Source of the DNA: Escherichia phage vB_EcoM_JN03
Direction: 5' to 3' (one strand)
Length of the DNA stretch: 64,000 bases
Sequence record: OR885871
Part shown: one piece after another, positions 2 through 20,404 of the stretch
Position numbering within the stretch: position 1 is the stretch's first letter
Layout: the number at the start of each line of letters is the position of its first letter
Program-made: the position numbers and the translations under genes
Notes under the pieces: generated by a model
What the model was told of the DNA's origin: nothing
What the model saw: the letters and a program-made list of their open reading frames with translations, nothing else
Database searches by the model: none

Positions 2-2509
2 TCTACAATTACCTGGGTCTATAATGGGGGTTCAGCGATTGGCGGTGAAACCGAAATCACGTTAGACATCGTTGTTGATGATGTTCCAGCCATTGATATA
101 AACGGAAGTCGCCAGTATAAAAATCTGGGGTTCACATTCGATCCATTAACCAGTAAAATCACTCTTGCGCAAGAACTGGATGCGGAGGATGAAGTTGTTG
201 TAATTATCAATGGAACGCCAAACATCTATAATCAAATTGATTATACTTTGCGGGAAGTGGCTCGTGTAACCAATGTTAAAGATACAGAGGTCATTTATTT
301 TAGTGTTGGTGCTGTGTTAAGTGGATATAAAGTTATCTATGATAAAGTAACACAGAGATCATATTTTATTCCAGAGTTACCGACTGGAACCACGGCGGTC
401 AGCCTTAGTTCTTCGGCTGTACTTGTGCATTCTGCTGGTAGTGTTGATCTGGGCGCATTAGCTGTATCTCGTGAAGAATACGTAACATTGTCTGGGACAT
501 TTGATTCTGGTGCTGTCATCAATGTTAAAAATGAATTACTCACCCACACGGATGGAAAGTATCGCTGGGATGGGGAATTCCCCAAAATCGTTCCGGATGG
601 TTCAACTCCGGCGACGTCTGGTGGCATTGGTATTGGGTCATGGGTTGCAGTAGGTAATGAAGCAATACGTGTAGAGCTTGCAAGTCCTGCAAGTGGGTAT
701 GGTGCTGAAATGGTAGCACTGAAACAGCCAGTTTCTGGCTCAAAAGAGCGCACTGTTTACGACTGGATTGCTGATATCATAACTGCAAAGGATGGGGATA
801 GTATTGTTGCAGATGGTATTAATAATGATGCTGTTGGTATAAACGCTTTCCTACCTGTACTGGCAGCAGCGCAGCGTGAACTCCTTTTAGTTCCTGGCGT
901 TTATTTGATAAACGATGACATTACAATAGATATTCCGGTAACGATCCAGCCAGGTGCAATCCTGAAGCCTAGAAATGGTGCGCAACTTACGTTCAAATCA
1001 GAGATAAGAGCTGGATGCTATAAAATATTCGACACCGAGGATGATTTTTACACGTCACCTGTCGCCGTGCCATCTGTAAAGATAGCAAAAGGCGGAGTAA
1101 AACCAGAGTGGTTTGGTGCTGCTACGGTGAGTTCTTATGATGAGATTGCATCAGCGGTTAACTGCTCTCCGGCATTCATGAAAGCGTGGAGGGCAACAAC
1201 TGGGGAATATACCGCAAACGTTACGGCATCATACAGGCAGTCTGAGTACATGCACTCGTATATAGACCTATCCGCTGGAAAATACCGCATGGATAAAGAG
1301 GTATTCCTTGGTCACACTGATTTCACACCAACAACTGTAAGATACAACAAAAACGGTGGTGGCGTTATAGGGCAAGGTGCAGGTTTATCTATTCTGGTAT
1401 TCACTGACAGCGAGTATGCTGGGAACGCATATTTTACCGCAAATGATATGTCAGGAGAAATGCACACGTTTAAAGGATTTAAATGTACAGCATTCGATCC
1501 ATCAAAAACAGGCACTGCTCAGTATGAAACAAAAGTTGGCGCAATGATTCTGATTGGTAGCGCTGATTCCATAACTACTTCTGATTTATGGGCCGCTGGA
1601 GCGACTACTGTCGTTGCAGATACTAATGGCTTTGGTAGAGGTGGTGTTGGCATTCAGTTTGATTCTCTTGTAGACCATCAATTTTCTGACCTGTTAGTTG
1701 AACATTGTGTGCATGGGGTGGCATTCAGTTCATGCATTTCAACAGGAAATAACATTAAGGGGTTTGCAAACAAAATTAGTGATTTGTCATTCGGAAACTA
1801 CATCCCTGACTGGCCTCAAATGGTATCACAAACAACTAAGAATACTATAGGGGTTAACGGTTTCGAGTCTAAATTCTGCCTGAATAACCCAATAACATTT
1901 GGCACATATGACAACATGGTTGATATAACCGGTGTTGTTGTTGATGGTCGTGCAGAGTCCTCACTGTCAGTCGTTACCAACCGTGTGATTGGATTTGGTG
2001 TTGGTGGTGGTGTGTCAGGCACTATTTCTGGGTCTGCCAGGAATCTGCTTTTAGGACTAATTGCAGATTTCGGGGTCTCATTTGCAGGAAGGGACGGCGC
2101 ACCATTAAGACTTAATTTCGATATCGAGAATATTGTTGGGGCCTCATCTTCTGAAAACGCCGTTGTCGCTGTTGATAAATCTGACTCCAATTTAATTGGT
2201 TCGATTGGTATCTCATCATCTGTGTTTCCTATATTGAGGTCATCTAGCACCACCACCACAATTGAAATAAATGCTAGCGACATAACACTAACAACAGGAA
2301 GCCCTTCTGGAACAAATGCAATCTTATGTAAAGGTGGTAACTTAAACGTCACGGCTTTAAAGATATCAAACTCAACAGGAATAACTGGGTTAGTCTACGC
2401 AGAAAATAGTTCTGTATTACTACCTACACACACTATAAGCCCAACAAGAGCAGTGACAAAAGTTGGCGGAGCGACTATTAAATCGTACTCTATAACTGAT
2501 TTTGCTTAA
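2..2509 (+). CDS. Tailspike / receptor-binding protein TSP-A, 5'-partial (continues upstream of window)
   Basis: Frame is open from nt 2 to the stop at 2507-2509; the ORF-track start at 248 is an internal TTG. Upstream translation (...GGETEITLD...NIYNQIDYTLREVARVTNVKDTEVIYF) parallels the first ~175 aa of TSP-C. Carries the conserved module (NVKD-EVIYF, SGYKVIYD, GSVDLGALAVSREEYVTL, NVKNELL, YRWDG, GSTP..SGG.G.G.W) followed by a Gly/Thr/Asn/Ser-rich divergent C-terminal region. Confidence 0.75.
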   Translation, partial: STITWVYNGGSAIGGETEITLDIVVDDVPAIDINGSRQYKNLGFTFDPLTSKITLAQELDAEDEVVVIINGTPNIYNQIDYTLREVARVTNVKDTEVIYFSVGAVLSGYKVIYDKVTQRSYFIPELPTGTTAVSLSSSAVLVHSAGSVDLGALAVSREEYVTLSGTFDSGAVINVKNELLTHTDGKYRWDGEFPKIVPDGSTPATSGGIGIGSWVAVGNEAIRVELASPASGYGAEMVALKQPVSGSKERTVYDWIADIITAKDGDSIVADGINNDAVGINAFLPVLAAAQRELLLVPGVYLINDDITIDIPVTIQPGAILKPRNGAQLTFKSEIRAGCYKIFDTEDDFYTSPVAVPSVKIAKGGVKPEWFGAATVSSYDEIASAVNCSPAFMKAWRATTGEYTANVTASYRQSEYMHSYIDLSAGKYRMDKEVFLGHTDFTPTTVRYNKNGGGVIGQGAGLSILVFTDSEYAGNAYFTANDMSGEMHTFKGFKCTAFDPSKTGTAQYETKVGAMILIGSADSITTSDLWAAGATTVVADTNGFGRGGVGIQFDSLVDHQFSDLLVEHCVHGVAFSSCISTGNNIKGFANKISDLSFGNYIPDWPQMVSQTTKNTIGVNGFESKFCLNNPITFGTYDNMVDITGVVVDGRAESSLSVVTNRVIGFGVGGGVSGTISGSARNLLLGLIADFGVSFAGRDGAPLRLNFDIENIVGASSSENAVVAVDKSDSNLIGSIGISSSVFPILRSSSTTTTIEINASDITLTTGSPSGTNAILCKGGNLNVTALKISNSTGITGLVYAENSSVLLPTHTISPTRAVTKVGGATIKSYSITDFA

Positions 2510-2513
2510 CAAA

Positions 2514-2540
2514 AACCCCGCTTCGGTGGGGTTCTTATTA
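2514..2540 (+). terminator. Rho-independent terminator (aaccccgcttcggtggggtt + U-tract)
   Basis: GC-rich perfect hairpin immediately after the TSP-A stop, followed by a T-rich run. Confidence 0.7.
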
Positions 2541-2571
2541 TACCTTTGTTCATAAATTTTATTAGTTCAGA

Positions 2572-2579
2572 CTAAATAC
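2572..2579 (+). promoter_or_regulatory. Late-promoter-like box CTAAATAC upstream of TSP-B
   Basis: 7/8 match to T4 late promoter TATAAATA; the same box recurs upstream of several structural genes in this window. Confidence 0.45.
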
Positions 2580-2611
2580 CCCATATTGGTCATCCTTTAT
2601 GGGGTATTATC

Positions 2612-4525
2612 ATGATTTCTCAATTCAATCAACCACGCGGCTCCACTTCCATAGAAGTTAACAAACAATCTATCGCTCGAAATTTCGGTGTCAAAGAAGA
2701 CGAAGTCATTTATTTCACTGTCGGTATTGATCTCAGCGGATTTAAAGTAATTTATGATGAGTCTACCCAACGGGCTTATTCTCTTCCTTCGGGTATTGTT
2801 TCAGGAACGATTGCGATAAGTCTGAACGAACAAGCCATCCTTACTCATTCTTCTGGCTCTGTTGACCTTGGGGAATTAGCAGTAAGCCGCGAAGAATATG
2901 TGACTTTACCTGGTTCTTTTAATTTCGGTCATACCATTAATGTGAAAAATGAACTTCTTGTTCACGATGATAAAAAATATCGATGGGATGGTTCTTTGCC
3001 AAAGGCAGTTGCCGCTGGTTCTACACCCGATAACTCAGGCGGTGTTGGTTTAGGTGCATGGTTGAGTGTTGGTGATGTATCATTGAGAGCGGATTTGGCT
3101 AGTGGCACACTTGGTAAAGGTGCGAATCTTTTGACATATAAGTCACAAGTATCAAACTCGGTTGCTATAAGCCAACAAATTAAAAATAGTGAAAGGGTTT
3201 CTGTTTTTGAGTATTTGGCTAAGCCTATTCCTGGTTTTGATAATGCATCAGCATTCGCTGCTATGAAAGCTGATGCTGAAGCAGGTGTTGTAATAACAGT
3301 ACCTTCAGGAGTATATGAAACATCTGAACCACTGAGATTCACAAAACCTGTTCAAATATGGTTTGATGTAGGAGTGCGAATAAAACTTACATCTGGTGCA
3401 CATGACCATGTTGTGGAAATAGATTTACGTGGACAAGATGAGGGGTATTGGGGGTATAAACCTTTCTTTGGTGGTGGCAGGGTTATTCTTGATGGTCTTG
3501 GTCATGCTAAGTACGGGCTATCACTTCGTGGCGTAATATCTGGTGGTTTTCCTGGTATTCAAGCAACCAATATAACAACTGCTGGGTTATATCTGGCTTG
3601 GACTCAATGCTGTACATACACTGATTTTATTTGCTCTAATAACGTGGAGGTTTTCACAACAAAACCCCTGCACGGTATTTTAGTAGATAAAGATAACAAT
3701 CCGTCAAATCCACGTGGTACATCATGCGATATCTTTATTAACCCATGTGTAGAGCACACTGCGGGTGATGGGTTTGTAGGACTAAGCCTGATGAACTCAA
3801 TGGTTATAAACGGAACAATCGAGGGAAACCTTGGCGCAGGCATTTCATTGGGGCATCCTACAGATAATACTTACACTGCACTGGGTAATACATTTCTTGG
3901 TATTGACCTTGAGGTGAACACGCTAACTGATATTGTGATTAACAAGTTTTCACACATGAACGAGTTCATAGGACTCAAATCAGGTTATTCATCTCCATCA
4001 GTTCAGGTCAGAGGTTTTCGTAACTATTTCTCTGGAGGTACTGTTAGCGATTTCGACTTCAGGCCAGATAGCCATGACAACCACGTACAGGATGTAACAC
4101 TTTTAGCTGAGTTTCCTGTTGTTAATGATGAAGGGATAAGAAACACTTATGAAAGATTATGGAATCTTAACAATGCTCAAGTTAACGTAAGCACAAACCC
4201 TGTTAACACAAGAAGCAATCAGCCTATAGCGGGAGGTGAGACAGTAACGTTAGACCCATATAAAGCATCCTATGTTGTATGCACCGCAACAGGAACACCT
4301 ATTAATATAGTTTCTGCCACCAAAAAATTAGATGGAGCAAGAATAGATTTGACAATTCACAATGCATCAGGAACAGATTCATTAGTCATTAACTGGGCAT
4401 CAGATATTAGAGTTGGCAATTTTACTCCTCCACCAGCAGGTAAACATAAGGGGTTATCACTAAGATATGATGCTAATTACGGTTATTGGACTGTAGTTGG
4501 TGTTGGACTGGACGCTTTATCGTGA
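2612..4525 (+). CDS. Tailspike / receptor-binding protein TSP-B (637 aa)
   Basis: N-terminus carries the conserved module shared with the other three genes (GVKEDEVIYF, SGFKVIYD, GSVDLGELAVSREEYVTL, NVKNELLVH, YRWDG, GSTPDNSGGVGLGAWLSVG); divergent C-terminal domain. Confidence 0.75.
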   Translation: MISQFNQPRGSTSIEVNKQSIARNFGVKEDEVIYFTVGIDLSGFKVIYDESTQRAYSLPSGIVSGTIAISLNEQAILTHSSGSVDLGELAVSREEYVTLPGSFNFGHTINVKNELLVHDDKKYRWDGSLPKAVAAGSTPDNSGGVGLGAWLSVGDVSLRADLASGTLGKGANLLTYKSQVSNSVAISQQIKNSERVSVFEYLAKPIPGFDNASAFAAMKADAEAGVVITVPSGVYETSEPLRFTKPVQIWFDVGVRIKLTSGAHDHVVEIDLRGQDEGYWGYKPFFGGGRVILDGLGHAKYGLSLRGVISGGFPGIQATNITTAGLYLAWTQCCTYTDFICSNNVEVFTTKPLHGILVDKDNNPSNPRGTSCDIFINPCVEHTAGDGFVGLSLMNSMVINGTIEGNLGAGISLGHPTDNTYTALGNTFLGIDLEVNTLTDIVINKFSHMNEFIGLKSGYSSPSVQVRGFRNYFSGGTVSDFDFRPDSHDNHVQDVTLLAEFPVVNDEGIRNTYERLWNLNNAQVNVSTNPVNTRSNQPIAGGETVTLDPYKASYVVCTATGTPINIVSATKKLDGARIDLTIHNASGTDSLVINWASDIRVGNFTPPPAGKHKGLSLRYDANYGYWTVVGVGLDALS

Positions 4526-4573
4526 CATCACCAACATTATAAAATGATGTTGTTGCTGTTAAAATTTAAATAA

Positions 4574-4598
4574 CCCCGCTTTGGCGGGGTTCTTGTTA
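4574..4598 (+). terminator. Rho-independent terminator (aaccccgctttggcggggtt + U-tract)
   Basis: Near-identical copy of the hairpin at 2514-2540; part of a ~100-bp repeated intergenic cassette. Confidence 0.7.
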
Positions 4599-4629
4599 TA
4601 CCTTTGTTCATAAATTTTATTAGTTCAGA

Positions 4630-4637
4630 CTAAATAC
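4630..4637 (+). promoter_or_regulatory. Late-promoter-like box CTAAATAC upstream of TSP-C
   Basis: Same cassette as at 2572-2579. Confidence 0.45.
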
Positions 4638-4672
4638 CCCATATTGGCAAATCCTTTATGGGGTATTTTCAA

Positions 4673-7438
4673 ATGACCAGAAATGTAGAAGAATTATTCG
4701 GCGGCGTAATCACAGCTCCTCACCAGATTCCTTTCACGTATAAATCAAATGTCGGTGGAGAAACTTTCCTTTCTTTGCCGTTCCATCCCGTCACTGGTGT
4801 TATCACAATCAACGGTGGTATGCAAGTTCCGTTAGACAACTTTGAAATCGAAGGAAATACGTTGAATCTCGGGCGCGCATTGTCCAAAGGCGATGTTGTG
4901 TATTGCTTATTCGATAAAATTCTTTCGCCAGAAGATACAGCCAAAGGTATCCGCATATACAAATTTCAGGCCGTGGGAGGTGAAACCGAGTTCACTCCTG
5001 ATTTCACATCCTATGGTGTCCAATCTCTTTATATCGGTGGCGAGTACAAAACACCCGAAATTGAATATTCCTATAACAGCACGACAGGGAAAGTGTCTTT
5101 GCAAACTGCACTGACTGCAGGCGTTTGGGTAGTCGCTGAAATGTCTGTTAAACAACCGAATATCAGTCCGGCGTTTGACCGAAGTATTCAAGAAATCGCC
5201 CGTTCTGCTAATGTAAAAGACTCTGAAGTCATCGTTAGTACGGACACCATATCTTTGTTGGATGGGAAGAAAGTTGTTTATGATATAGCGACGCAAACCA
5301 GTTATGGTTTACCAACCATTCCTGATGGTTCTGTCATTTCTTCTGTATCTGCTGGGAAATTGAATTACAACCCAGGTGATGTGCAGGTTGATTTGTTGCC
5401 TTTAGAAGATTCATTTATTAATGTGATAAACACTCTGGGGCGCAATGATGGTGCCAAGTATATTGGAGAATGCCATTCTGTTGCTGATCTCAGGAATACT
5501 GAACCCACTATGGATGGACAACGCATTATTCTTAAGCAACACACTGCGGGTACTCTTCTTGGCGGAGGGGTATTCCGTGCGTTAATTGATGGTACAGGAA
5601 AGACTGATAATAACGGTACTGTGATCAAAACTGTTGGCGGCGCGGCATGGTTACGTGTTAATGCTGATAGAGTTAACCCATTCATGTTTGGTGCTTTGGG
5701 TGGTTCTAATGATGATACTATTCCAGTACAATCTTGTGTGGATAGTGGTAAGGCCACACAATTAACTGATGCACATTACGTTAGCAATATCCAGTTAAAA
5801 TATAATACGTCGTCTATTTATGGGTCTGGATTACATTACTCAAGGTTGCATCAGTTGCCTTCTGCTACTGGGAATTGTATTACCATAAAAGATACATGCT
5901 CCCTTATTGTATTAGACGCCTTTGGGGTATATGGCACAGGTGCACAACAAGGCATGCCATTTACTGCGGGCACAACAGGTATCTATGTAGAAACTCCTTC
6001 AGGTCTCTCAGCCGATTATCCGTTCCACACTACCGCAGACCCAAGACGCGACTTGTGTATTTCTAAGGTCCATATAGCAGGTTTTGATGAATATGGGTTA
6101 AATATTGATAGTGGTAACTTTAGTGTTACTACAGATTCTCTTTTAGTCAACCACATCAATCAGGTGGGTGTCCGTTGTGCTACTACTGATTGGACTTGGA
6201 CAAATATCCAGGTTAATACCTGCGGTAAACAATGTCTGGTTCTTGATGGTTGTGGTAATGGTCGTATTATTGGCGGTAAATTCATTTGGGCTAACTGGCA
6301 ACCTTATGGTACAGTAGGACAGTTCCCAGGCATTACTATTAATAACAGCCAGAATATGGTTATTAATGGTATTGAGGTACAAGATTGTGGCGGGAATGGC
6401 ATTGAGATTAGCGATTCATATTCAATTTCCATGAACGGATTGAACACCAATCGTAACGGCATCAATGCTAACAACACTTTCTACAACATCGTATTTAACA
6501 AAAGCGATGCAGTTATCAACGGATTCGTAGGACTCAATTATGCCGCGAATAGTGGTTCAGGTGCTAACTCTAGTGCAGGCAATTTTCAGTTCCTGTCTAA
6601 TGATTGTAGTGTCACCATTAATGGTGTGGTTGAGACTGGTTATATGGGCATTAACTTTATTGGTGATAACAATATTATCAACCCCACCAATTCCGACCTG
6701 AGCATTAACGGATTGGTTAATTATTCCAAGACTGGTTTGCAAACCATGAACGAGACCCCTACATTTGATGGTGTTAGCACTACACCTGTTTATGTAAGTG
6801 TCCCATCTTCTGTAGGGCAAGTAAATGGTCTGAGACTATCACAAGCCAACAAAGATAAATTACTGTATTCAAGAACAGCAGGTCCAGAAGGTATTACCAT
6901 GGCTGCTGTTGTAGTACCCACCATATCTGGAGCTGAAGTATTTAACTTCATGGCCATTGGTTCAGGGTTTAGTGATACATCCAACAGTCTTCATCTTCAA
7001 TTAGTTATAGACGCTTCTGGAAAACAAACAATTGCTTTGCTATTGGGGGGCGATGGTACAACCCAAATTTTATCTGGGGATTTACCTAACGACCTTAAAC
7101 TACAAAGTGGTGTACCATATCATATAGCTATTGGTGCTAAACCTGGATATTTCTGGTGGAGTATTCTTAATATTCAGACGGGTAAGAGAATCAGACGGTC
7201 ATTCCGAGGCGCTTATTTAGCCGTACCATTTAATTCTATATTCGGATTAACTTCTTCATTAACATTCTTCTCGGATAGCAATGCTGGTGGGGATGCTTGT
7301 TCTGGGGTTGGTGCTAAAGTGTATGTTGGTATGTTCTCTTCTGAGAACGATTATGTAGCTTCACGATACTACAACCTGATTAATCCTGTAGACCCTACTA
7401 AGTTAATTAGTTACCGTATATTGGATTCTTCTATTTAA
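4673..7438 (+). CDS. Tailspike / receptor-binding protein TSP-C (~921 aa) with long N-terminal extension
   Basis: Start moved to the ATG at 4673 because the ORF-track ATG at 4658 lies inside the conserved hairpin. The conserved module is internal (IQEIARSANVKDSEVI ... from ~aa 175), preceded by an N-terminal domain like the upstream part of TSP-A. Confidence 0.7.
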   Translation: MTRNVEELFGGVITAPHQIPFTYKSNVGGETFLSLPFHPVTGVITINGGMQVPLDNFEIEGNTLNLGRALSKGDVVYCLFDKILSPEDTAKGIRIYKFQAVGGETEFTPDFTSYGVQSLYIGGEYKTPEIEYSYNSTTGKVSLQTALTAGVWVVAEMSVKQPNISPAFDRSIQEIARSANVKDSEVIVSTDTISLLDGKKVVYDIATQTSYGLPTIPDGSVISSVSAGKLNYNPGDVQVDLLPLEDSFINVINTLGRNDGAKYIGECHSVADLRNTEPTMDGQRIILKQHTAGTLLGGGVFRALIDGTGKTDNNGTVIKTVGGAAWLRVNADRVNPFMFGALGGSNDDTIPVQSCVDSGKATQLTDAHYVSNIQLKYNTSSIYGSGLHYSRLHQLPSATGNCITIKDTCSLIVLDAFGVYGTGAQQGMPFTAGTTGIYVETPSGLSADYPFHTTADPRRDLCISKVHIAGFDEYGLNIDSGNFSVTTDSLLVNHINQVGVRCATTDWTWTNIQVNTCGKQCLVLDGCGNGRIIGGKFIWANWQPYGTVGQFPGITINNSQNMVINGIEVQDCGGNGIEISDSYSISMNGLNTNRNGINANNTFYNIVFNKSDAVINGFVGLNYAANSGSGANSSAGNFQFLSNDCSVTINGVVETGYMGINFIGDNNIINPTNSDLSINGLVNYSKTGLQTMNETPTFDGVSTTPVYVSVPSSVGQVNGLRLSQANKDKLLYSRTAGPEGITMAAVVVPTISGAEVFNFMAIGSGFSDTSNSLHLQLVIDASGKQTIALLLGGDGTTQILSGDLPNDLKLQSGVPYHIAIGAKPGYFWWSILNIQTGKRIRRSFRGAYLAVPFNSIFGLTSSLTFFSDSNAGGDACSGVGAKVYVGMFSSENDYVASRYYNLINPVDPTKLISYRILDSSI

Positions 7439-7444
7439 AAATAT

Positions 7445-7468
7445 ACCCCTCTTCGGAGGGGTCTTTAC
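7445..7468 (+). terminator. Rho-independent terminator (acccctcttcggaggggt + U-tract)
   Basis: Perfect hairpin right after the TSP-C stop. Confidence 0.6.
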
Positions 7469-7489
7469 TAGAAAAACAATGAGGTACTT

Positions 7490-9535
7490 ATGAACGAAAT
7501 GTTTAGTCAAGGTGGTAAAGGTTCGACTGGAATCTTAACCAATAAACAAGCAGTAGCCAGACACTTTGGTGTTAAACAATCTGAGGTTGTTTATGCCAAA
7601 TCAGGACAGTCCTTGTCTGGTTATAAAGTGATCTACGATAAGGTATCTCAACGTGCCTACGCTCTCCCTTCTAACATTGGTGCTGTAACGGTCACCAGTT
7701 TGGTCGACGGCATCCTCACGCACTCTGGAGGCACCGTAGATTTGGGTGCATTGGCTGTGTTAAGGGAAGAGTATGTTACTCTTGTTGAAAATTTTACTTC
7801 TGGATTTACGATTCGTGTCAAGAACGAAGTCGTGAGCGATGGGGTGAGTCTATATCGTTGGGATGGTGCTTTACCTAAAACCGTTGCACCTGGCTCAACA
7901 CCTGAAACAACTGGTGGAGTTGGTTTAGGTGCATGGTTGAGTGTTGGTGTTGCCACATTAAGAAGTGAATTAACATTGAATGTTTCAGATATTAATGGAT
8001 TGATTAACGTTAATACAAGAAACAAAAATTTCATGTATGTTACATCATCGTTTCGAGGGGGTGGAGGTGCTGGTGTATATGTATGGAATCCCACAAAAAA
8101 TAAATCATTACATAACGGAGCGACTATCATAGACCCATCAAGGACTCTACCGATAAACTGGGATTCTCAGTCGCAAATAGATGATTGGTTTACAATTTCA
8201 TCCACAGATGGGGTGGGATGTTTTGAATTAATTGAGGGGGAGAGCTCGGTTAATCCATTGCAGTGGGGCTGCTTGGGCGATTCATCAAAAGACAACCCAC
8301 ATAGTGGGTATGATAACTCTTTAATATCTGATTATGTTGATGACTACGCTGAATCAGTAAATAAAACAGTATTTTGGCCTCACGGTATATTTAGATTCAC
8401 TGGCCCACAGCAAAGAAAGACAAGGCATGATGGACATGAATACATTAGAATGAATAGTGAGTTTTCTACTGTTTTTATTATTGATAATCAGACGCCAATA
8501 ACTTTTCTAAAAGGAAAAGGGATTGGGACCGACCATCAGAAACTGTATGCCCACGGTTCAAGAGGAATAGAATATATTGGCAACCCTAAACGAATCCATA
8601 CTCTTCTTGATGCATACATGTACACGACATCATGGGAGCATTTTGCTGTTCGTGGATTTAAATATGGATTTGATATAAATTTTGTTTCTTTCCATATTCA
8701 GAATTTCTATTTTACTGATAATGAAATTGGAATTTACCCAAAACCACTAATGCCGCCATTGCAAGCTGCCGCACCAAGTACAATGCTATCATTATCTTAC
8801 GGTGCATTTGATTTCAGTAAGAATGGAATAGTATTCACTGAGAGATTTGGGCTTGGCGAGGCAGAAAACGTCATAAACGTAAATCTATCTTCTGTTGTGT
8901 TCGAACAAAATGAATTTGACGGATTCAGTTGTGCTAACTATCCATTACCTGTCGGTGTGAAAAATGCCAACAACAGGGTTATGAACCTTACAGTAAATAA
9001 TTGCTGGGCTGAACTTAACGGTAGAGCTGGTTTCAATTTCGAGAACGCTGACGTAACTGCGAATTCATTGAGAATAAATGAAGCGGATGAATTGATTTAT
9101 CCAGCAGGGGCAAGGACATACTCTATTGATGTAAATGGTGTAAGGGAAACAAACGTACTAAAATCGTCACTTTATGGAGCGCATAATATAGAAGCTCCGG
9201 TATCTGGTCAAATGATAATAAAACCAGATGGTAGCATTTATTCTGGTGCGACAATGCCTTTTACTGTTACAAAGACATCGGAAGGTCAATTTAAATTAAC
9301 GAATGCATCATCTACTCAGGGGTTTCAATACGTATCAATAGAGGTTATGCCATTCGATAGAGCAAGGATTGATACTGTTGTGACATGTGACCCATCAGAT
9401 GTCGCAGCGTTCGTTCAGTTTGGTACAATATCAAGCTATAAGATTGAATTTACATCGAGAGGCACATCTACATTTGTAACTCCAGAGGCTGGTTTCGCAG
9501 TTAAATTCTCATGGGTTCACCCTCTTAATAATTAA
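7490..9535 (+). CDS. Tailspike / receptor-binding protein TSP-D (681 aa)
   Basis: RBS gagg 7 nt upstream. N-terminal conserved module present (GVKQSEVVYA, SGYKVIYDKVSQRAY, GTVDLGALAVLREEYVTL, RVKNEVV, YRWDG, GSTPETTGGVGLGAWLSVG); divergent C-terminus. Confidence 0.75.
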   Translation: MNEMFSQGGKGSTGILTNKQAVARHFGVKQSEVVYAKSGQSLSGYKVIYDKVSQRAYALPSNIGAVTVTSLVDGILTHSGGTVDLGALAVLREEYVTLVENFTSGFTIRVKNEVVSDGVSLYRWDGALPKTVAPGSTPETTGGVGLGAWLSVGVATLRSELTLNVSDINGLINVNTRNKNFMYVTSSFRGGGGAGVYVWNPTKNKSLHNGATIIDPSRTLPINWDSQSQIDDWFTISSTDGVGCFELIEGESSVNPLQWGCLGDSSKDNPHSGYDNSLISDYVDDYAESVNKTVFWPHGIFRFTGPQQRKTRHDGHEYIRMNSEFSTVFIIDNQTPITFLKGKGIGTDHQKLYAHGSRGIEYIGNPKRIHTLLDAYMYTTSWEHFAVRGFKYGFDINFVSFHIQNFYFTDNEIGIYPKPLMPPLQAAAPSTMLSLSYGAFDFSKNGIVFTERFGLGEAENVINVNLSSVVFEQNEFDGFSCANYPLPVGVKNANNRVMNLTVNNCWAELNGRAGFNFENADVTANSLRINEADELIYPAGARTYSIDVNGVRETNVLKSSLYGAHNIEAPVSGQMIIKPDGSIYSGATMPFTVTKTSEGQFKLTNASSTQGFQYVSIEVMPFDRARIDTVVTCDPSDVAAFVQFGTISSYKIEFTSRGTSTFVTPEAGFAVKFSWVHPLNN

Positions 9536-9540
9536 TATAA

Positions 9541-9568
9541 AAACCCCGCTAATGCGGGGTTTTATTTC
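9541..9568 (+). terminator. Rho-independent terminator (aaaccccgctaatgcggggttt + U-tract)
   Basis: Hairpin plus T-run directly after the TSP-D stop. Confidence 0.7.
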
Positions 9569-9589
9569 TATCTGTTTGTTGGCTGTATA

Positions 9590-9597
9590 CTAAATAT
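9590..9597 (+). promoter_or_regulatory. Late-promoter-like box CTAAATAT
   Basis: About 33 nt upstream of the ATG at 9630. Confidence 0.4.
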
Positions 9598-9629
9598 CTC
9601 TATAAAATGGCACTCGATGGAGCATCAAA

Positions 9630-12600
9630 ATGCAATCTACAAATTTAAACCGTCGCCCGTATTGGGATGACTGGAATCCTGGGAAACGTTTTTCACGGAT
9701 TCTTTTTCGTCCGATGCCTATCAAGGTTCAGACTCGCGAACTGAACCAGATGCAGACTATTCTTCAGGATCAAATTGAAAAACTGGGCAACCATTTGTTC
9801 AAAGATGGTTCTATGGTTATCCCTGGCGGTCTGACGATCACTAACGCCGCAGTCTCTTTGAAATTCACTTTGGCGGGTGGTACTGAATTCACCGATCTGG
9901 AAGGTATTTCTGAACTCTACGTTTTGGGGAAGGACAATAATGCCAAAGCGCGTGTGTTGTCTCTTGAACGTGATCTGTCTGCTCCTGATACGATGCTGGC
10001 TATCCTTGAGATGACTGAAGCGGGTAATGCTGACGGATTCCATGTTAACGATAATCTGTATTTCCAGACTTACGACGTGAATGATAATTTCATTCGTATT
10101 GGTTATGGTATCGCAGCTGCGGTGACTGGTTCTATCGTCGCTCGTATGACGAAAGGCGTTTACTTCATTCGTGGGATGTTCCTAGACGTTGATGACGCAA
10201 CTCTTATCGTTGATAAAACTTCGAACACGTCTTCCCACCGCATCGGATTTAAAGTCACCGAAACCATTGTCACTGAAACAGAAGATGAATCCCTTTATTC
10301 AAATGCTCAGGGAACGATTAACTCCAAAGCCCCAGGCGCTCATCGTCTTCGAATAGATCTGGTCTTATCTCGATTTGATTATGATGCTGTGGTTGAAGAC
10401 TTTGTTGAACTGGCCAAAGTTCGTGATGGTAAAATCCAGTCTATGGTGACTCAGTCTACCTATAATATTCTGGAAGACACGTTAGCCCAACGGACTTATG
10501 AAACCAACGGCGATTATAACGTTTCAACGCACCAGATCGACATCCGCGAACACCTGAAAGTCAATAACAATGGTGGTGTATTCAATGCTGCTGATGGCGG
10601 TGACGAGAGCAAATTTGTTTCTGTGATGAAACCAGGTATTTCCTATGTTCGCGGTCGACGTATCGAAAATGTCGGGGAAGAACTGGTTATTGTCGACAAG
10701 GCGCGGGATACCGATGTCCTGAATAACACCCCTGTTGCGGTGGCCACAGGCAATTATCTGGTCACTAAGAATTCTAAAGGTGTGCCAGTGATATCCCGCA
10801 CCGTTCGATACAAATTACTGAATGCTTCAGGCGTTACCCAGGCTACAGCACTTTGTATATCAGCTGAACGTAATTCAACAGAATTTCGTCTGTATATGCG
10901 CGACCTGGTCGTTACTGGCGATGCATCCACTATCACCAAAGTGTCTTACGAAGAAAGCGGTATCACCATGTTCTCTGCTGAACTGGAATCCAATCAGTTT
11001 AACCAGAGTTCTATGATAGATCTGATCTTCTCTCTTCCGGTATTCGGTGTCAAGACTTTAGCACCAACTGGCTCCGTGGATATCAACTACACTGTTCTCA
11101 GAACGTATAAAGTGACGTTGGACAACAGCGGCGCGGGTTCTATTTCTGCTCCATTGGGATATAGTTTTTCCCCAGAATTTTCGTTGTACTCTGCAGCGAA
11201 ATCTGATGGTTCTGAAGCGCAGTTCGATATCTCTGGTTCTTTGTCTTTGACTGGTTCTCCGGTCGGTTCGGCGCTGCAGATTTCTCTGGGTAGTGGTAAT
11301 GCTAACCAGTCAATCAATTTGCTGGCGCTGATGATTCGTACCACGGCCACAATCAAAACGAAGACCATCACTGAAACAACTGAAACAGTGACGTTCACCT
11401 CGCAGACTAGCCGTCCTTTGGCGAATCACGATGGTTGGAAATTGGTATCGGTCAAAAACGATACTGGCGCAGACGTGACCTCCAGCTTCGTCCTAGATGG
11501 CGGACAGCGTGATGCAGGGTATTACAAGTCTAACTTGTTATCCAGCGCTGGAGCAATCTCAGGGACGTATACAGTGGTGTATCAATACTTCGCCCACAGT
11601 TCCGGTGATTTCTTCTCTGCTGATTCGTATACTTCGATGGATTATAAAGATATCCCGAATTATACATCTTCTACATCAGGCGCGGTGTACGGCCTGGCAG
11701 ATAGTTTGGATTTCCGTCCGAAAATCACCAACGGAACTTCTGACACAGATATGGTTCGTCCAAACACTGCAGTTATTCTGGACACAGAATATTATCTGCC
11801 GCGTATTGACGCGATTTATCTGGCAGACAACGGTGTGTTTGGTGTGGCTCGAGGCATTAGTTCTAACAACCTGGCTTCTCCAGCAATCCCAGCGAACGCC
11901 ATGCGTTTGTATGAATTGTTGATCCCACCGTATACGCCGAATATTGATGATATACAAATTCGCACTATTGACAATCGTCGTTATACGATGCGCGATATCG
12001 GTAAACTGGAAACCCGTATTTCCAATGTTGAATACTATACCTCTCTGTCACAGCTGGAATCTTCGGCGATGACACAGCAAGTGTTCGACCCCATCACGGG
12101 TAATCCCCGTTTCAAAAATGGTATTGCGGCTGATCCGTTCAAAGACTTCCGGTTGATTGATGACTTGTCTGAAGATTGGATGGGTTCTATCGATACCGAA
12201 AACGGACGTCTGCGCCCGTTTGTACAACAAAACGTTGTTGACATGACTCCTGTTGGCTGGAACAAAGTGATGGATGGGATGGTGGTTTGCAATTACACGC
12301 CTGAAATCTCAGTGAACCAAGAATATGCGACGACGACGATCAACGTTAACCCGTACGCAGTATTCAATTGGGAAGGTTTCTTGAAGATTAACCCGACCAC
12401 AGACTACTGGTTCGAAAACTATTATGTTGCACCGCGTATTATCAATGAAACGATCAACACCCGTGGTACTGTACAAGAAGGTTCAGTGTACGGAACATGG
12501 CGTACTGTTTCTGTTTCTGATCGTGTTTGGGAACCGCATGGTGCTGGTGGTGTGTGGTGGGGATATCGTTACCGCACGACTGTTTCTGCCCGTGATGTCA

Positions 12601-16074: not shown

Positions 16075-16105
16075 TTATCAATTCCTCAAAAGAATTAATG
16101 ATTGA

Positions 16106-16113
16106 CTAAATAC
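16106..16113 (+). promoter_or_regulatory. Late-promoter-like box CTAAATAC upstream of gp14
   Basis: About 22 nt upstream of the ATG at 16136. Confidence 0.4.
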
Positions 16114-16135
16114 CTTCAAAATTGAGGGTAAAGTC

Positions 16136-20352: not shown

Positions 20353-20355
20353 TCA

Positions 20356-20363
20356 CTAAATAT
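20356..20363 (+). promoter_or_regulatory. Late-promoter-like box CTAAATAT upstream of the sheath gene
   Basis: About 42 nt upstream of the ATG at 20405. Confidence 0.4.
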
Positions 20364-20404
20364 CTTTCAAATTGAGCGAAACTCTACCGAGAAGGAATGA
20401 TATT

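What the first reader, a model, noticed from the sequence alone, without database searches (positions are those of the whole stretch)
2..9600. Four-gene tailspike cassette with a shared attachment module and swappable C-terminal domains
All four genes share a ~150-aa conserved module. It is N-terminal in TSP-B and TSP-D, and internal after a ~170-aa extension in TSP-A and TSP-C. Their C-terminal Gly/Asn/Thr-rich domains are unrelated to each other. This is the architecture expected for a branched multi-tailspike adsorption apparatus with several receptor (glycan) specificities, and the long-N-terminus proteins are candidates for the branch-forming adaptors. The first gene is truncated by the window edge.
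Basis: partly seen in the sequence, partly recalled or inferred. Interest (0 to 1): 0.6.

Follow-up and report, generated by a model that had tools for sequence, protein, structure and literature searches.

The report
Kuttervirus four-tailspike gene cluster (TSP4-3-2-1)
This is the well-studied four-tailspike host-recognition gene cluster of a CBA120-like (Kuttervirus) phage, ordinary in design, but with three of its four sugar-recognising domains replaced by versions found in no phage genome of the collection searched.

Summary
The four + strand genes are real. They are the tsp4-tsp3-tsp2-tsp1 cluster of a Kuttervirus (Ackermannviridae), lying directly upstream of vriC. TSP-B and TSP-D are identical to proteins of Escherichia phage vB_EcoM_JN03.

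TSP4 and TSP2 carry T4 gp10-like XD domains and form the branches. TSP1 and TSP3 dock on them through their D1-D2 heads. The C-terminal beta-helix domains set receptor specificity and are exchanged between phages.

Three corrections:
- TSP-C (TSP2) shares only the D1 half of the module (about 85-118 aa, 31-36% identity).
- The full N-terminal extension of TSP-A is about 345 aa, not about 170 aa.
- The C-terminal domains are unrelated in sequence but share the beta-helix fold, plus short sub-domains at their N-terminal ends.

TSP-C is 99.1% identical to the O157-specific CBA120 TSP2, with the catalytic residues kept. The other three receptor domains have no nucleotide match among 50,697 phage records. 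Their closest relatives are tailspikes in 35-47 kb siphovirus-type contigs and P22-like prophage tailspikes. The TSP1 domain is rare: 3 clusters among 5.8 billion. DNA repeats flank the replaced cassettes.

Verdict: known system, new member, low to moderate interest.

The parts
2..2509 (+). tsp4 (TSP-A), 3' 835 codons; about 262 N-terminal codons lie outside the window. aa 1-76 = XD3 domain; aa about 82-230 = D1-D2 head and neck; aa about 231-835 = beta-helix receptor-binding domain.
632..2509 (+). Replaced TSP4 receptor-binding cassette, not shared with CBA120, S117 or the otherwise near-identical relative L003.
   Evidence: Similarity to CBA120 and S117 by blastn stops at 631. No megablast match in the phage collection. 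Best phage protein match is 49%, to the Enterobacter phage Arya tailspike. 90% identical to a 741-aa tailspike in a siphovirus-type contig, and 80-82% to P22-like prophage tailspikes of Salmonella. L003 carries a different TSP4 C-terminus.
559..670 (+). Copy 1 of a 112-nt repeat at the 3' end of the head module (encodes ...YRWDG.LPK.V..GSTP..GG.G.G.W...). Candidate 5' recombination anchor.
   Evidence: the repeat finder family D1, copies at 559-670, 2977-3088 and 7852-7963. The conservation breakpoints at 631, 3096 and 7964 lie within or just after these copies.
2511..2589 (+). Intergenic repeat copy 1: terminator-like hairpin (2514-2533) followed by a leader with the late-promoter-like motif ACTAAATACC (2571-2580).
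   Evidence: the repeat finder family D2, 95% identical to 4569-4647. Terminator scan. The motif occurs 5 times on the + strand against 0.26 expected. CTAAATAcCcc is reported as an Ackermannviridae regulatory motif (PMC7283392).
2612..4525 (+). tsp3 (TSP-B), 637 aa: D1-D2 head (aa 1 to about 162) followed by a beta-helix receptor-binding domain.
   Evidence: Pfam PF18668 at aa 90-155. PDB 6nw9/5w6f match aa 1-177. 93% identical to CBA120 TSP3 over aa 1-162. Identical to WVP82621.1 of phage vB_EcoM_JN03.
2977..3088 (+). Copy 2 of the 112-nt end-of-head repeat.
3097..4525 (+). Replaced TSP3 receptor-binding cassette.
   Evidence: blastn breakpoint at 3096. No megablast match in the phage collection. 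52% identical to tailspikes of E. coli siphophages and 43% to a Kuttervirus PhiSH19 tailspike. 84-92% to about 606-aa Tail_spike_N proteins from sequencing-run assemblies. Family members carry four different N-terminal adaptor domains, and 15 of 25 carry PF12708. phrog_18522 'tail protein', E 3e-144.
4569..4647 (+). Intergenic repeat copy 2: terminator-like hairpin (4572-4591) and leader with ACTAAATACC (4629-4638).
4658..7438 (+). tsp2 (TSP-C), 926-aa ORF; probable true start is the ATG at 4673 (921 aa). XD2-XD3 (aa about 6-173), a single D1 head, D3', and the O157-specific beta-helix glycosidase.
   Evidence: PDB 6w4q matches residues 6-926 to chain 1-921. 99.1% identical to CBA120 TSP2, 8 substitutions, with D506, E568, D571 and Y623 conserved. 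No PF18668. The first five codons lie in the 3' arm of the leader hairpin, which is non-coding upstream of tsp3.
7445..7462 (.). Terminator-like hairpin between tsp2 and tsp1. No late-promoter-like motif precedes tsp1.
7490..9535 (+). tsp1 (TSP-D), 681 aa: D1-D2 head (aa 1 to about 160), a D3'-like small domain (about 165-275), a beta-helix and a C-terminal domain.
   Evidence: Pfam PF18668 at aa 91-153. PDB 4oj5 matches aa 1-179. Identical to WVP82623.1 of phage JN03. AlphaFold model pLDDT 64 overall, 77-89 for most 10-residue blocks of aa 160-450. Foldseek probability 1.0 to tailspike and capsule-depolymerase beta-helices.
7852..7963 (+). Copy 3 of the 112-nt end-of-head repeat.
7965..9535 (+). 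Replaced TSP1 receptor-binding cassette. It is rare and has low GC (0.381 against 0.446 for the backbone).
   Evidence: blastn breakpoint at 7964. No megablast match in the phage collection. Only weak partial tblastn hits. Only 3 clusters among 5.8 billion. The next relative among 1.84 billion representatives is 30% identical. GC content. No match in 5,426 complete E. coli genomes.
9540..9563 (.). Terminator-like hairpin after tsp1, followed by ACTAAATATC (9589-9598) upstream of vriC.
9630..14468 (+). vriC (1612 aa, DUF4815), the conserved gene that marks one side of the Ackermannviridae tsp cluster. It is a flank, not part of the complex as described.
   Evidence: Pfam PF16075. Annotated VrlC/VriC in matching Kuttervirus records. 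Cluster definition in PMC8432352.

Best explanation
**What it is.** The region is the tsp4-tsp3-tsp2-tsp1 gene cluster of a Kuttervirus (family Ackermannviridae). By its proteins it is indistinguishable from Escherichia phage vB_EcoM_JN03. It encodes four homotrimeric tailspikes that assemble into the branched receptor-binding complex at the baseplate.

**How it assembles (by homology to CBA120).**
- TSP4 (TSP-A) anchors to the baseplate through an N-terminal anchor domain that lies outside the window. It presents gp10-like XD2 and XD3 platforms.
- TSP2 (TSP-C) docks on TSP4 through its own XD2 domain.
- TSP1 (TSP-D) docks through its D1-D2 head on the XD3 domain of TSP4.
- TSP3 (TSP-B) docks through its head on the TSP4:TSP2 complex.

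**What it does.** Each spike ends in a right-handed parallel beta-helix that binds, and probably cleaves, one surface polysaccharide. The virion therefore carries four receptor specificities. TSP-C is the E. coli O157 O-antigen glycosidase. The other three have unknown receptors.

**How it came to look like this.**
- Those three receptor domains are cassettes replaced relative to CBA120. The junction is at the end of the head or neck in each case.
- A 112-nt end-of-head repeat lies on the 5' side of each cassette. A terminator-plus-leader repeat lies on the 3' side.
- These repeats are the likely substrates for homologous recombination.
- The donor pool is shared with 35-47 kb siphovirus-type contigs that use the same Tail_spike_N head, and with P22-like prophages.

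**Shown here:** gene identity, domain content, breakpoints, repeats, folds and relatives.

**Inferred:** assembly order, enzymatic activity of A, B and D, the recombination mechanism, and the receptors.
For: **Identity of the phage and cluster.**
- The backbone (9600-34000) is about 98% identical to Kuttervirus genomes.
- The cluster aligns to CBA120 orf213-orf210 and to S117 'tail spike 4, 3, 2, 1'.
- TSP-B and TSP-D are exact matches to JN03 proteins.

**Domains.**
- PDB sequence matches: 7rej (TSP4 XD3), 5w6h, 6nw9, 6w4q and 4oj5.
- PF18668 is present in A, B and D but not in C.
- TSP-C is 99.1% identical to CBA120 TSP2, with the catalytic residues kept.
- The binding order comes from the AUC and crystallography work in PMC8825819.
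- The O157 specificity and catalytic residues come from PMC7506556.

**Folds.**
- TSP-D: model matches tailspike beta-helices with probability 1.0.
- TSP-B family: PF12708 in 15 of 25 members, and profile hits to Sf6 and pectin-lyase-like structures.

**Cassette exchange.**
- Breakpoints are at 631, 3096 and 7964.
- The relative L003 shares TSP3, TSP2 and TSP1 at 99.6-100% but has a different TSP4 C-terminus.
- Receptor-domain relatives carry Tail_spike_N, P22 head-binding, T7 tail-fibre or endosialidase N-termini.
- Their genomic contexts are siphovirus-like.
- Identity of 90% or more is confined to the beta-helix body.
- Receptor-module swapping in Kuttervirus is reported in PMC8432352 and shown experimentally in PMC11414711.
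Against: - Nothing contradicts the assignment.
- The TSP4 N-terminus (AD, XD1, XD2) is outside the window and was seen only in the relative L003.
- The TSP-D head is only 69% identical to the CBA120 TSP1 head, so its docking on TSP4 XD3 is extrapolated.
- The TSP-D model has moderate confidence (pLDDT 64), with the D2 region and parts of the C-terminus poorly predicted.
- No catalytic residues were identified for A, B or D, so they could bind without cleaving, or be lyases or esterases rather than hydrolases.
- The breakpoints found here (end of D2 or neck) differ from the GTTAVSL site at aa 65/391 proposed in PMC8432352. The recombination sites are therefore not uniquely defined.
Confidence: 0.92

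Rival explanations
1. The four genes arose by tandem duplication within this lineage. On this view the C-terminal domains are highly diverged paralogues, not horizontally exchanged cassettes.
Against: Each receptor domain is 80-92% identical to tailspikes in unrelated phage types (siphovirus-type contigs, P22-like prophages), while being undetectably similar to its neighbours. The N-terminal modules are 90-93% (TSP-A, TSP-B) and 69% (TSP-D) identical to CBA120, with sharp breakpoints. A near-identical relative differs only in the TSP4 cassette. The GC content of the TSP1 cassette is 0.381, against 0.446 for the backbone.
Confidence: 0.03
2. One or more of the three novel spikes is a binding-only or non-hydrolytic module (for example a lyase or a deacetylase) rather than an O-antigen glycosidase. 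Alternatively, it targets capsule rather than LPS.
Against: All four characterised CBA120 tailspikes, and most enterobacterial tailspikes of this architecture, target O-antigens (PMC7506556). The closest relatives sit in Salmonella, Citrobacter and E. coli prophages of P22 type, and P22-type tailspikes are classically O-antigen endoglycosidases (my own knowledge).
Confidence: 0.25
3. The cluster is partly non-functional. For example, tsp1 may be poorly expressed because it follows a terminator-like hairpin and lacks its own late-promoter-like motif. Or its divergent head may no longer dock, leaving an apparatus that is effectively three-spiked.
For: A hairpin lies at 7445-7462, only 27 nt before the tsp1 ATG, and there is no ACTAAATAYC motif upstream. 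The TSP-D head is 69% identical to the CBA120 TSP1 head.
Against: The ORF is intact at 681 aa and is conserved at 99.6% in an independent assembly. The tsp2-tsp1 junction and the head region match other Kuttervirus genomes at high identity up to position 7949, so this arrangement is the family norm. The head retains PF18668.
Confidence: 0.05

Closest known systems
Escherichia phage vB_EcoM_CBA120 TSP1-4 branched receptor-binding complex (orf210-213; PDB 4OJ5, 6W4Q/5W6P, 6NW9/5W6F, 5W6H, 7REJ)
   Same: Same genus-level backbone, gene order and flanking vriC. Same N-terminal assembly modules: TSP4 XD3 plus head 90% identical, TSP3 head 93%, TSP2 99.1% over its full length, TSP1 head 69%. Same overall design of head, neck and beta-helix.
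   Different: The receptor-binding domains of TSP4, TSP3 and TSP1 are replaced and show no detectable sequence similarity to the CBA120 domains. TSP-D (a TSP1) has a D3'-like small domain after the neck, which in CBA120 is described only for TSP2 and TSP4.
Kuttervirus contig in E. coli assembly GCA_031520405.1 (locus L003)
   Same: TSP3 99.8%, TSP2 100% and TSP1 99.6% identical. Same flanks.
   Different: TSP4 has a different C-terminal receptor domain (1011 aa; similarity ends at about aa 226 of the visible TSP-A). This shows a recent single-cassette exchange.
Tailspikes with Tail_spike_N heads in 35-47 kb siphovirus-type contigs (L004, L005) and phages such as Enterobacter phage Arya and Escherichia phages hz69 and GZMU_E2010
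   Same: They share the D1-D2-type head family (PF18668) and, for L005 and L004, beta-helix bodies 90-100% identical to TSP-A and TSP-D respectively.
   Different: Each sits as a single tailspike in a contig carrying siphovirus-type tail genes (tape measure; Sipho_Gp157 in L005), with no XD-domain adaptors. Heads and necks are only 27-73% identical.
P22-like prophage tailspikes of Salmonella and Citrobacter (Pfam Head_binding PF09008), and the Det7 precedent of 'a podoviral tailspike in a myovirus' (PDB 2V5I)
   Same: Their beta-helix receptor domains are homologous to those of TSP-A (80-82%), TSP-B (about 46-54%) and TSP-D (82%). This is the same principle of receptor-domain sharing across phage morphotypes.
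   Different: Their N-terminal adaptor is the P22 head-binding domain, not D1-D2. None of the window proteins has PF09008.
Phage T4 gp10, and phage G7C gp66/gp63.1 two-spike complex
   Same: gp10-like XD jellyroll domains serve as trimeric docking platforms for further fibres or spikes (PMC8825819). The PDB entries 9d80 and 9d83 (tail fiber / Gp49) match the XD-plus-head regions of TSP-A and TSP-C, and 4qnl matches the heads of TSP-A, B and D.
   Different: T4 gp10 is a baseplate wedge protein without a receptor domain. G7C forms only two branches.

Membership tests
Ackermannviridae (Kuttervirus) TSP1-4 branched receptor-binding complex | A cluster of up to four consecutive tsp genes lying between a baseplate wedge gene and vriC (definition in PMC8432352) | tested here: met
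   Four consecutive genes are followed by vriC (DUF4815, 9630-14468). The baseplate-wedge side is outside the window, but it is present upstream in the near-identical relative L003 (PF23786).
Ackermannviridae (Kuttervirus) TSP1-4 branched receptor-binding complex | TSP4 with an N-terminal anchor domain plus XD1, XD2 and XD3 gp10-like domains before the D1-D2 head | tested here: inconclusive
   Only XD3 is in the window (aa 1-76, matching 7rej residues 263-338, E 1e-40). AD, XD1 and XD2 lie beyond the window edge. In L003 the homologous gene has the full 262-aa upstream part.
Ackermannviridae (Kuttervirus) TSP1-4 branched receptor-binding complex | TSP2 with N-terminal XD2-XD3 and a head made of D1 only | tested here: met
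   TSP-C is 99.1% identical to CBA120 TSP2 over 921 aa. It has no PF18668 (D2) hit. It shares only about 85-118 aa with the heads of B and D.
Ackermannviridae (Kuttervirus) TSP1-4 branched receptor-binding complex | TSP1 and TSP3 start directly with a D1-D2 head followed by a neck | tested here: met
   TSP-B aa 1-177 matches 6nw9 residues 1-178. TSP-D aa 1-179 matches 4oj5 residues 1-181. PF18668 is present in both.
Ackermannviridae (Kuttervirus) TSP1-4 branched receptor-binding complex | C-terminal right-handed parallel beta-helix receptor-binding or catalytic domain in each TSP | tested here: met
Ackermannviridae (Kuttervirus) TSP1-4 branched receptor-binding complex | Physical assembly of the four trimers into one branched complex on the baseplate | not testable with these tools
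   Inferred from 69-99% identity of the assembly modules to CBA120, for which AUC, EM and crystallography exist (PMC8825819).
Ackermannviridae (Kuttervirus) TSP1-4 branched receptor-binding complex | Each TSP recognises or degrades a distinct host polysaccharide | not testable with these tools
   Only TSP-C can be assigned by near-identity (O157; D506, E568 and D571 conserved). The receptors of A, B and D are unknown.
Existing Kuttervirus TSP subtypes (75% or more identity, Sorensen et al. 2021) | Receptor-binding region at least 75% identical to a TSP of a classified Ackermannviridae phage | tested here: not met
   Not met for TSP-A, B and D. There is no megablast match in 50,697 phage records, and the best tblastn identities are 49%, 52% (43% to a Kuttervirus) and 27-42% partial. 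Met for TSP-C, which is the CBA120 TSP2 type. I did not compare directly with the paper's subtype tables.
P22-like tailspikes | N-terminal head-binding domain (Pfam PF09008) | tested here: not met
   None of the four proteins has a PF09008 hit. Only homologues of their receptor domains carry it.

The most novel reading that the evidence does not exclude
The three replaced cassettes (TSP4, TSP3 and TSP1 positions) may represent receptor specificities not yet assigned to any Ackermannviridae tailspike. The rare TSP1 domain stands out: it has 3 clusters among 5.8 billion, and its next relative is 30% identical. It could be a depolymerase for an enterobacterial O-antigen or capsule type for which no phage enzyme is known. 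The repeat-flanked layout would make this locus a natural plug-in site for receptor domains drawn from siphoviruses and P22-like prophages.
Probability: 0.45. Interest if true: 0.35.

Novelty: new member of a known kind. Interest (0 to 1): 0.22.

Why it matters
The architecture is textbook for Ackermannviridae, so it answers no open question.

Its practical value is as a catalogue entry. This is an O157-targeting Kuttervirus backbone carrying three uncharacterised tailspike domains. Their relatives sit in Salmonella, Citrobacter and E. coli prophages and in small siphovirus-type contigs. Working out their receptors would extend host-range prediction tables for this family. It would also provide new parts for the tailspike-swapping engineering already being done in these phages (PMC11414711, PMC12737597).

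The comparison with L003, where only the TSP4 cassette differs, and the flanking repeats give a clean natural example of single-cassette exchange.

Tried and rejected
- **Megablast of the three C-terminal cassettes against the phage collection:** no match. The deposited JN03 genome is evidently not in that copy.
- **blastn ('distant') of the TSP1 and TSP3 cassettes against 5,426 complete E. coli genomes, to get a serotype lead:** no match.
- **Exact-sequence contig lookup of TSP-B:** nothing on record. The cluster representative P0002 worked instead.
- **Receptor prediction for TSP-A from the serovars of prophage hosts.** The hosts include Salmonella Waycross, Bron, arizonae 41:z4,z23:- and 62:z4,z23:-, houtenae, and Citrobacter freundii. 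That range is too mixed to name an O-antigen, so I rejected it as evidence.
- **Direct pairwise test of a shared D3' domain between TSP-C and TSP-D:** not significant (E 0.03). The link rests only on a profile match to phrog_24271 and on structural neighbours.
- **Simple-duplication hypothesis for the C-terminal domains:** rejected.
- **Literature search for phage JN03:** found nothing relevant.
- **Rfam and tRNA scans of the whole window:** empty.
- **Minus-strand ORFs inside the cluster** (up to 178 aa, e.g. 1816..2352 and 7657..8130): not pursued. They lie wholly inside strongly supported + strand genes.


Full report
**1. What is in the sequence**

The region holds four consecutive + strand ORFs:
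- TSP-A, 2..2509: 835 codons, in frame from the window edge.
- TSP-B, 2612..4525: 637 aa.
- TSP-C, 4658..7438: 926 aa.
- TSP-D, 7490..9535: 681 aa.

A 1612-aa DUF4815 gene follows at 9630..14468.

Pairwise blastp confirms a strongly conserved module in three of the four proteins:
- A-B: 45% over 250 aa.
- A-D: 54% over 145 aa.
- B-D: 58% over 163 aa.
- E-values range from 1e-40 to 1e-57.

Pfam calls the second half of this module Tail_spike_N (PF18668) in A, B and D, but not in C. TSP-C shares only the first half: 31-36% identity over 84-118 aa with B and D. With TSP-A it shares a longer but weaker stretch (25% over 293 aa), which also covers the upstream domains.

- TSP-C has only half of the module.
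- TSP-A is cut by the window. Its first visible residue aligns with residue 263-264 of CBA120 TSP4, so its N-terminal extension is about 345 aa, not about 170 aa.
- The Gly/Asn/Thr/Ser enrichment of the C-terminal parts is modest: 33-38%, against 32% in the neighbouring vriC protein.

**2. What it is**

- Megablast of the region hits 252 phage records, nearly all Kuttervirus. It aligns to CBA120 orf213-212-211-210 and to phage S117 'tail spike 4, 3, 2, 1'.
- The following 24 kb is about 98% identical, end to end, to Kuttervirus genomes.
- TSP-B and TSP-D are exact matches to WVP82621.1 and WVP82623.1 of Escherichia phage vB_EcoM_JN03. I found no paper on that phage.

Sequence searches against the PDB assign the modules:
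- TSP-A aa 1-76 matches the XD3 domain of the TSP4-N structure (7REJ). TSP-A aa 82-230 matches the head of TSP4 (5W6H).
- TSP-B aa 1-177 matches the TSP3 head (6NW9).
- TSP-D aa 1-179 matches the TSP1 head (4OJ5).
- TSP-C residues 6-926 match full-length CBA120 TSP2 (6W4Q). Identity is 99.1% (8 substitutions), and D506, E568, D571 and Y623 are conserved.

So TSP-A, B, C and D are TSP4, TSP3, TSP2 and TSP1.

**3. How it works**

This rests on published CBA120 work, not on tests made here.
- PMC8825819 shows the following.
  - TSP1, TSP3 and TSP4 have a D1-D2 head, while TSP2 has D1 only.
  - TSP2 and TSP4 carry N-terminal regions of about 170 and about 340 residues, built from T4 gp10-like XD domains.
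  - TSP4 anchors the complex to the baseplate.
  - TSP2 binds TSP4 through the XD2 domain of TSP2.
  - TSP1 binds the XD3 domain of TSP4 through its head.
  - TSP3 binds the pre-formed TSP4:TSP2 complex through its head.
- PMC7506556 establishes TSP2 as the O157-specific glycosidase and identifies its catalytic residues.

The assembly modules here are 69-99% identical to those of CBA120, so the same assembly is the best-supported inference.

The 'shared attachment module' label is right only for TSP1 and TSP3.

**4. The C-terminal domains**

*Breakpoints and matches in the phage collection*
- Conservation with CBA120 and S117 ends sharply at 631 (TSP4), 3096 (TSP3) and 7964 (TSP1). It resumes at the following intergenic region.
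- The three cassettes have no megablast match among 50,697 phage records.
- At protein level the best phage matches are:
  - TSP-A: 49%, to the Enterobacter phage Arya tailspike.
  - TSP-B: 52% to E. coli siphophages, and 43% to a PhiSH19-type Kuttervirus tailspike.
  - TSP-D: only partial hits at 27-42%.

*Matches in the 5.8-billion-cluster protein collection*
- The TSP-A domain is 88-90% identical to about 741-aa Tail_spike_N proteins. It is 80-82% identical to P22-like (PF09008) prophage tailspikes of Salmonella, whose clusters also include Citrobacter freundii members.
- The TSP-B domain is 84-92% identical to about 606-aa Tail_spike_N proteins, and about 46-54% to P22-like or 'GH28-related' prophage proteins.
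  - Its family members carry four different N-terminal adaptors: Tail_spike_N, P22 head-binding, T7 tail-fibre N-terminus and endosialidase N-extension.
- The TSP-D domain has only three clusters. One has a Tail_spike_N head and one a P22 head-binding domain.
  - Its next relative among 1.84 billion representatives is 30% identical.

*Genomic context and mosaic structure*
- The two closest Tail_spike_N relatives sit in 35-47 kb siphovirus-type contigs with tape-measure genes; L005 also carries Sipho_Gp157.
- Identity of 90% or more is confined to the beta-helix body. The neck and the first sub-domains are more diverged. The mosaic is therefore nested.
- A near-identical relative (L003, a 158-kb contig in an E. 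coli assembly) shares TSP3, TSP2 and TSP1 at 99.6-100% but has a different TSP4 C-terminus. This is a recent single-cassette swap.
- The GC content of the TSP1 cassette is 0.381, against 0.446 for the backbone.

**5. Fold**

- The TSP-A domain model (25-sequence alignment, pLDDT 86) is a right-handed parallel beta-helix.
- The TSP-D model has moderate confidence: pLDDT 64 overall, and 77-89 for most 10-residue blocks of aa 160-450.
  - It matches CBA120 TSP4 and TSP3, and Acinetobacter and Klebsiella capsule depolymerases, with Foldseek probability 1.0. TM-scores are low, as expected for long multi-domain spikes.
- TSP-B was not modelled. Its family shows PF12708 and profile hits to Sf6 and pectin-lyase-like chains.

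Profile-profile comparison shows no relation between the beta-helix bodies. The exceptions are about 100 aa of neck and N-terminal cap shared by A and B (probability 99.4%), and a weak 53-aa stretch shared by B and D.

TSP-D residues about 165-245 match the D3' part of the TSP2-family profile phrog_24271 (E 4e-12). The direct pairwise test against TSP-C is not significant.

The refutation criterion 'C-terminal domains homologous to each other (simple duplication)' is therefore not met. They share a fold, not a recent origin.

**6. DNA-level features that fit cassette exchange**

- A 112-nt repeat lies at the 3' end of each D2-encoding segment, at 559-670, 2977-3088 and 7852-7963. The other two copies are 62% and 79% identical to the reference copy at 2977-3088. 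It lies at or just 5' of each breakpoint.
- A 79-nt terminator-plus-leader repeat lies after tsp4 and after tsp3, at 2511-2589 and 4569-4647 (95% identical).
- Terminator-like hairpins follow all four genes.
- The leaders of tsp3, tsp2 and vriC contain ACTAAATAYC. This motif occurs 5 times in the window, all on the + strand just upstream of ORFs, against 0.26 expected.
  - It matches the CTAAATAcCcc motif reported for Ackermannviridae (PMC7283392).
- tsp1 has no such motif.

That these repeats act as recombination anchors is my inference. PMC8432352 proposed a different site, GTTAVSL at the end of D1. That motif is present in TSP-A, but it is not where these three junctions lie.

**7. Comparison with what is known, and verdict**

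The system is a member of the Ackermannviridae TSP1-4 branched complex. All testable defining features are met. Two could not be settled: the N-terminal three domains of TSP4 are outside the window, and physical assembly and activity cannot be tested here.

What is new is only the content. Three receptor-binding domains fall below the 75% subtype threshold of PMC8432352 against every phage in the collection searched, and one of them is very rare. The genome itself is already deposited, with these genes annotated as hypothetical proteins.

- Novelty: new member of a known kind.
- Interest: low to moderate, about 0.2.
- Most novel reading not excluded: these cassettes encode specificities not yet assigned to any Kuttervirus spike (probability about 0.45).

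Noticed in passing
window 4658-4675: The 926-aa TSP-C ORF starts at an ATG inside the 3' arm of the leader hairpin (ACCCCATA...TATGGGGT). This arm is non-coding in the equivalent leader upstream of tsp3. The second ATG at 4673 gives the 921-aa protein that matches the crystallised CBA120 TSP2 from residue 1. The true start is probably 4673.
   Followed up: partly
window 2571-2580, 4629-4638, 9589-9598, 16105-16114, 20355-20364 (+ strand): The motif ACTAAATAYC occurs 5 times, all on the + strand and 8-35 nt upstream of ORF starts, against 0.26 expected by chance. It corresponds to the CTAAATAcCcc motif reported for Ackermannviridae and resembles the T4 late promoter TATAAATA. tsp1 lacks it and sits 27 nt after a terminator-like hairpin, which raises the question of how tsp1 is transcribed.
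   Followed up: partly
window 2514-2533, 4572-4591, 7445-7462, 9540-9563: Near-identical GC-rich hairpins (AACCCCGC-loop-GCGGGGTT) follow each of the four tailspike genes. The scan found 16 terminator-like sites in 10 kb, against 7.4 expected.
   Followed up: partly
L003 6857-9892 (E. coli assembly GCA_031520405.1, 158-kb contig): A complete Kuttervirus genome-sized contig sits in an E. coli isolate assembly. It carries the same TSP3, TSP2 and TSP1 as the window but a different 1011-aa TSP4. Its TSP4 gene was not called in the collection's gene table, although the ORF is intact.
   Followed up: partly
window 9630-14468: The 1612-aa VriC/DUF4815 protein lies immediately downstream. Its role in the adsorption apparatus is not defined in the papers I read.
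   Followed up: no
window 7965-9535: The TSP1 receptor cassette has the lowest GC of the region (0.381, against 0.446 for the rest of the window). This suggests a donor of lower GC than the phage backbone.
   Followed up: partly
window 1816-2352 (-) and 7657-8130 (-): Minus-strand ORFs of 178 and 157 aa lie wholly inside tsp4 and tsp1. I treated them as chance ORFs and did not examine them.
   Followed up: no
hit H67 (OR844942.1): A record named 'Enterococcus phage Efm 3-10' (111 kb) is 97.6% identical to the Kuttervirus backbone over 24 kb. The host label looks implausible for this phage group, so it may be a mislabelled or contaminated record.
   Followed up: no
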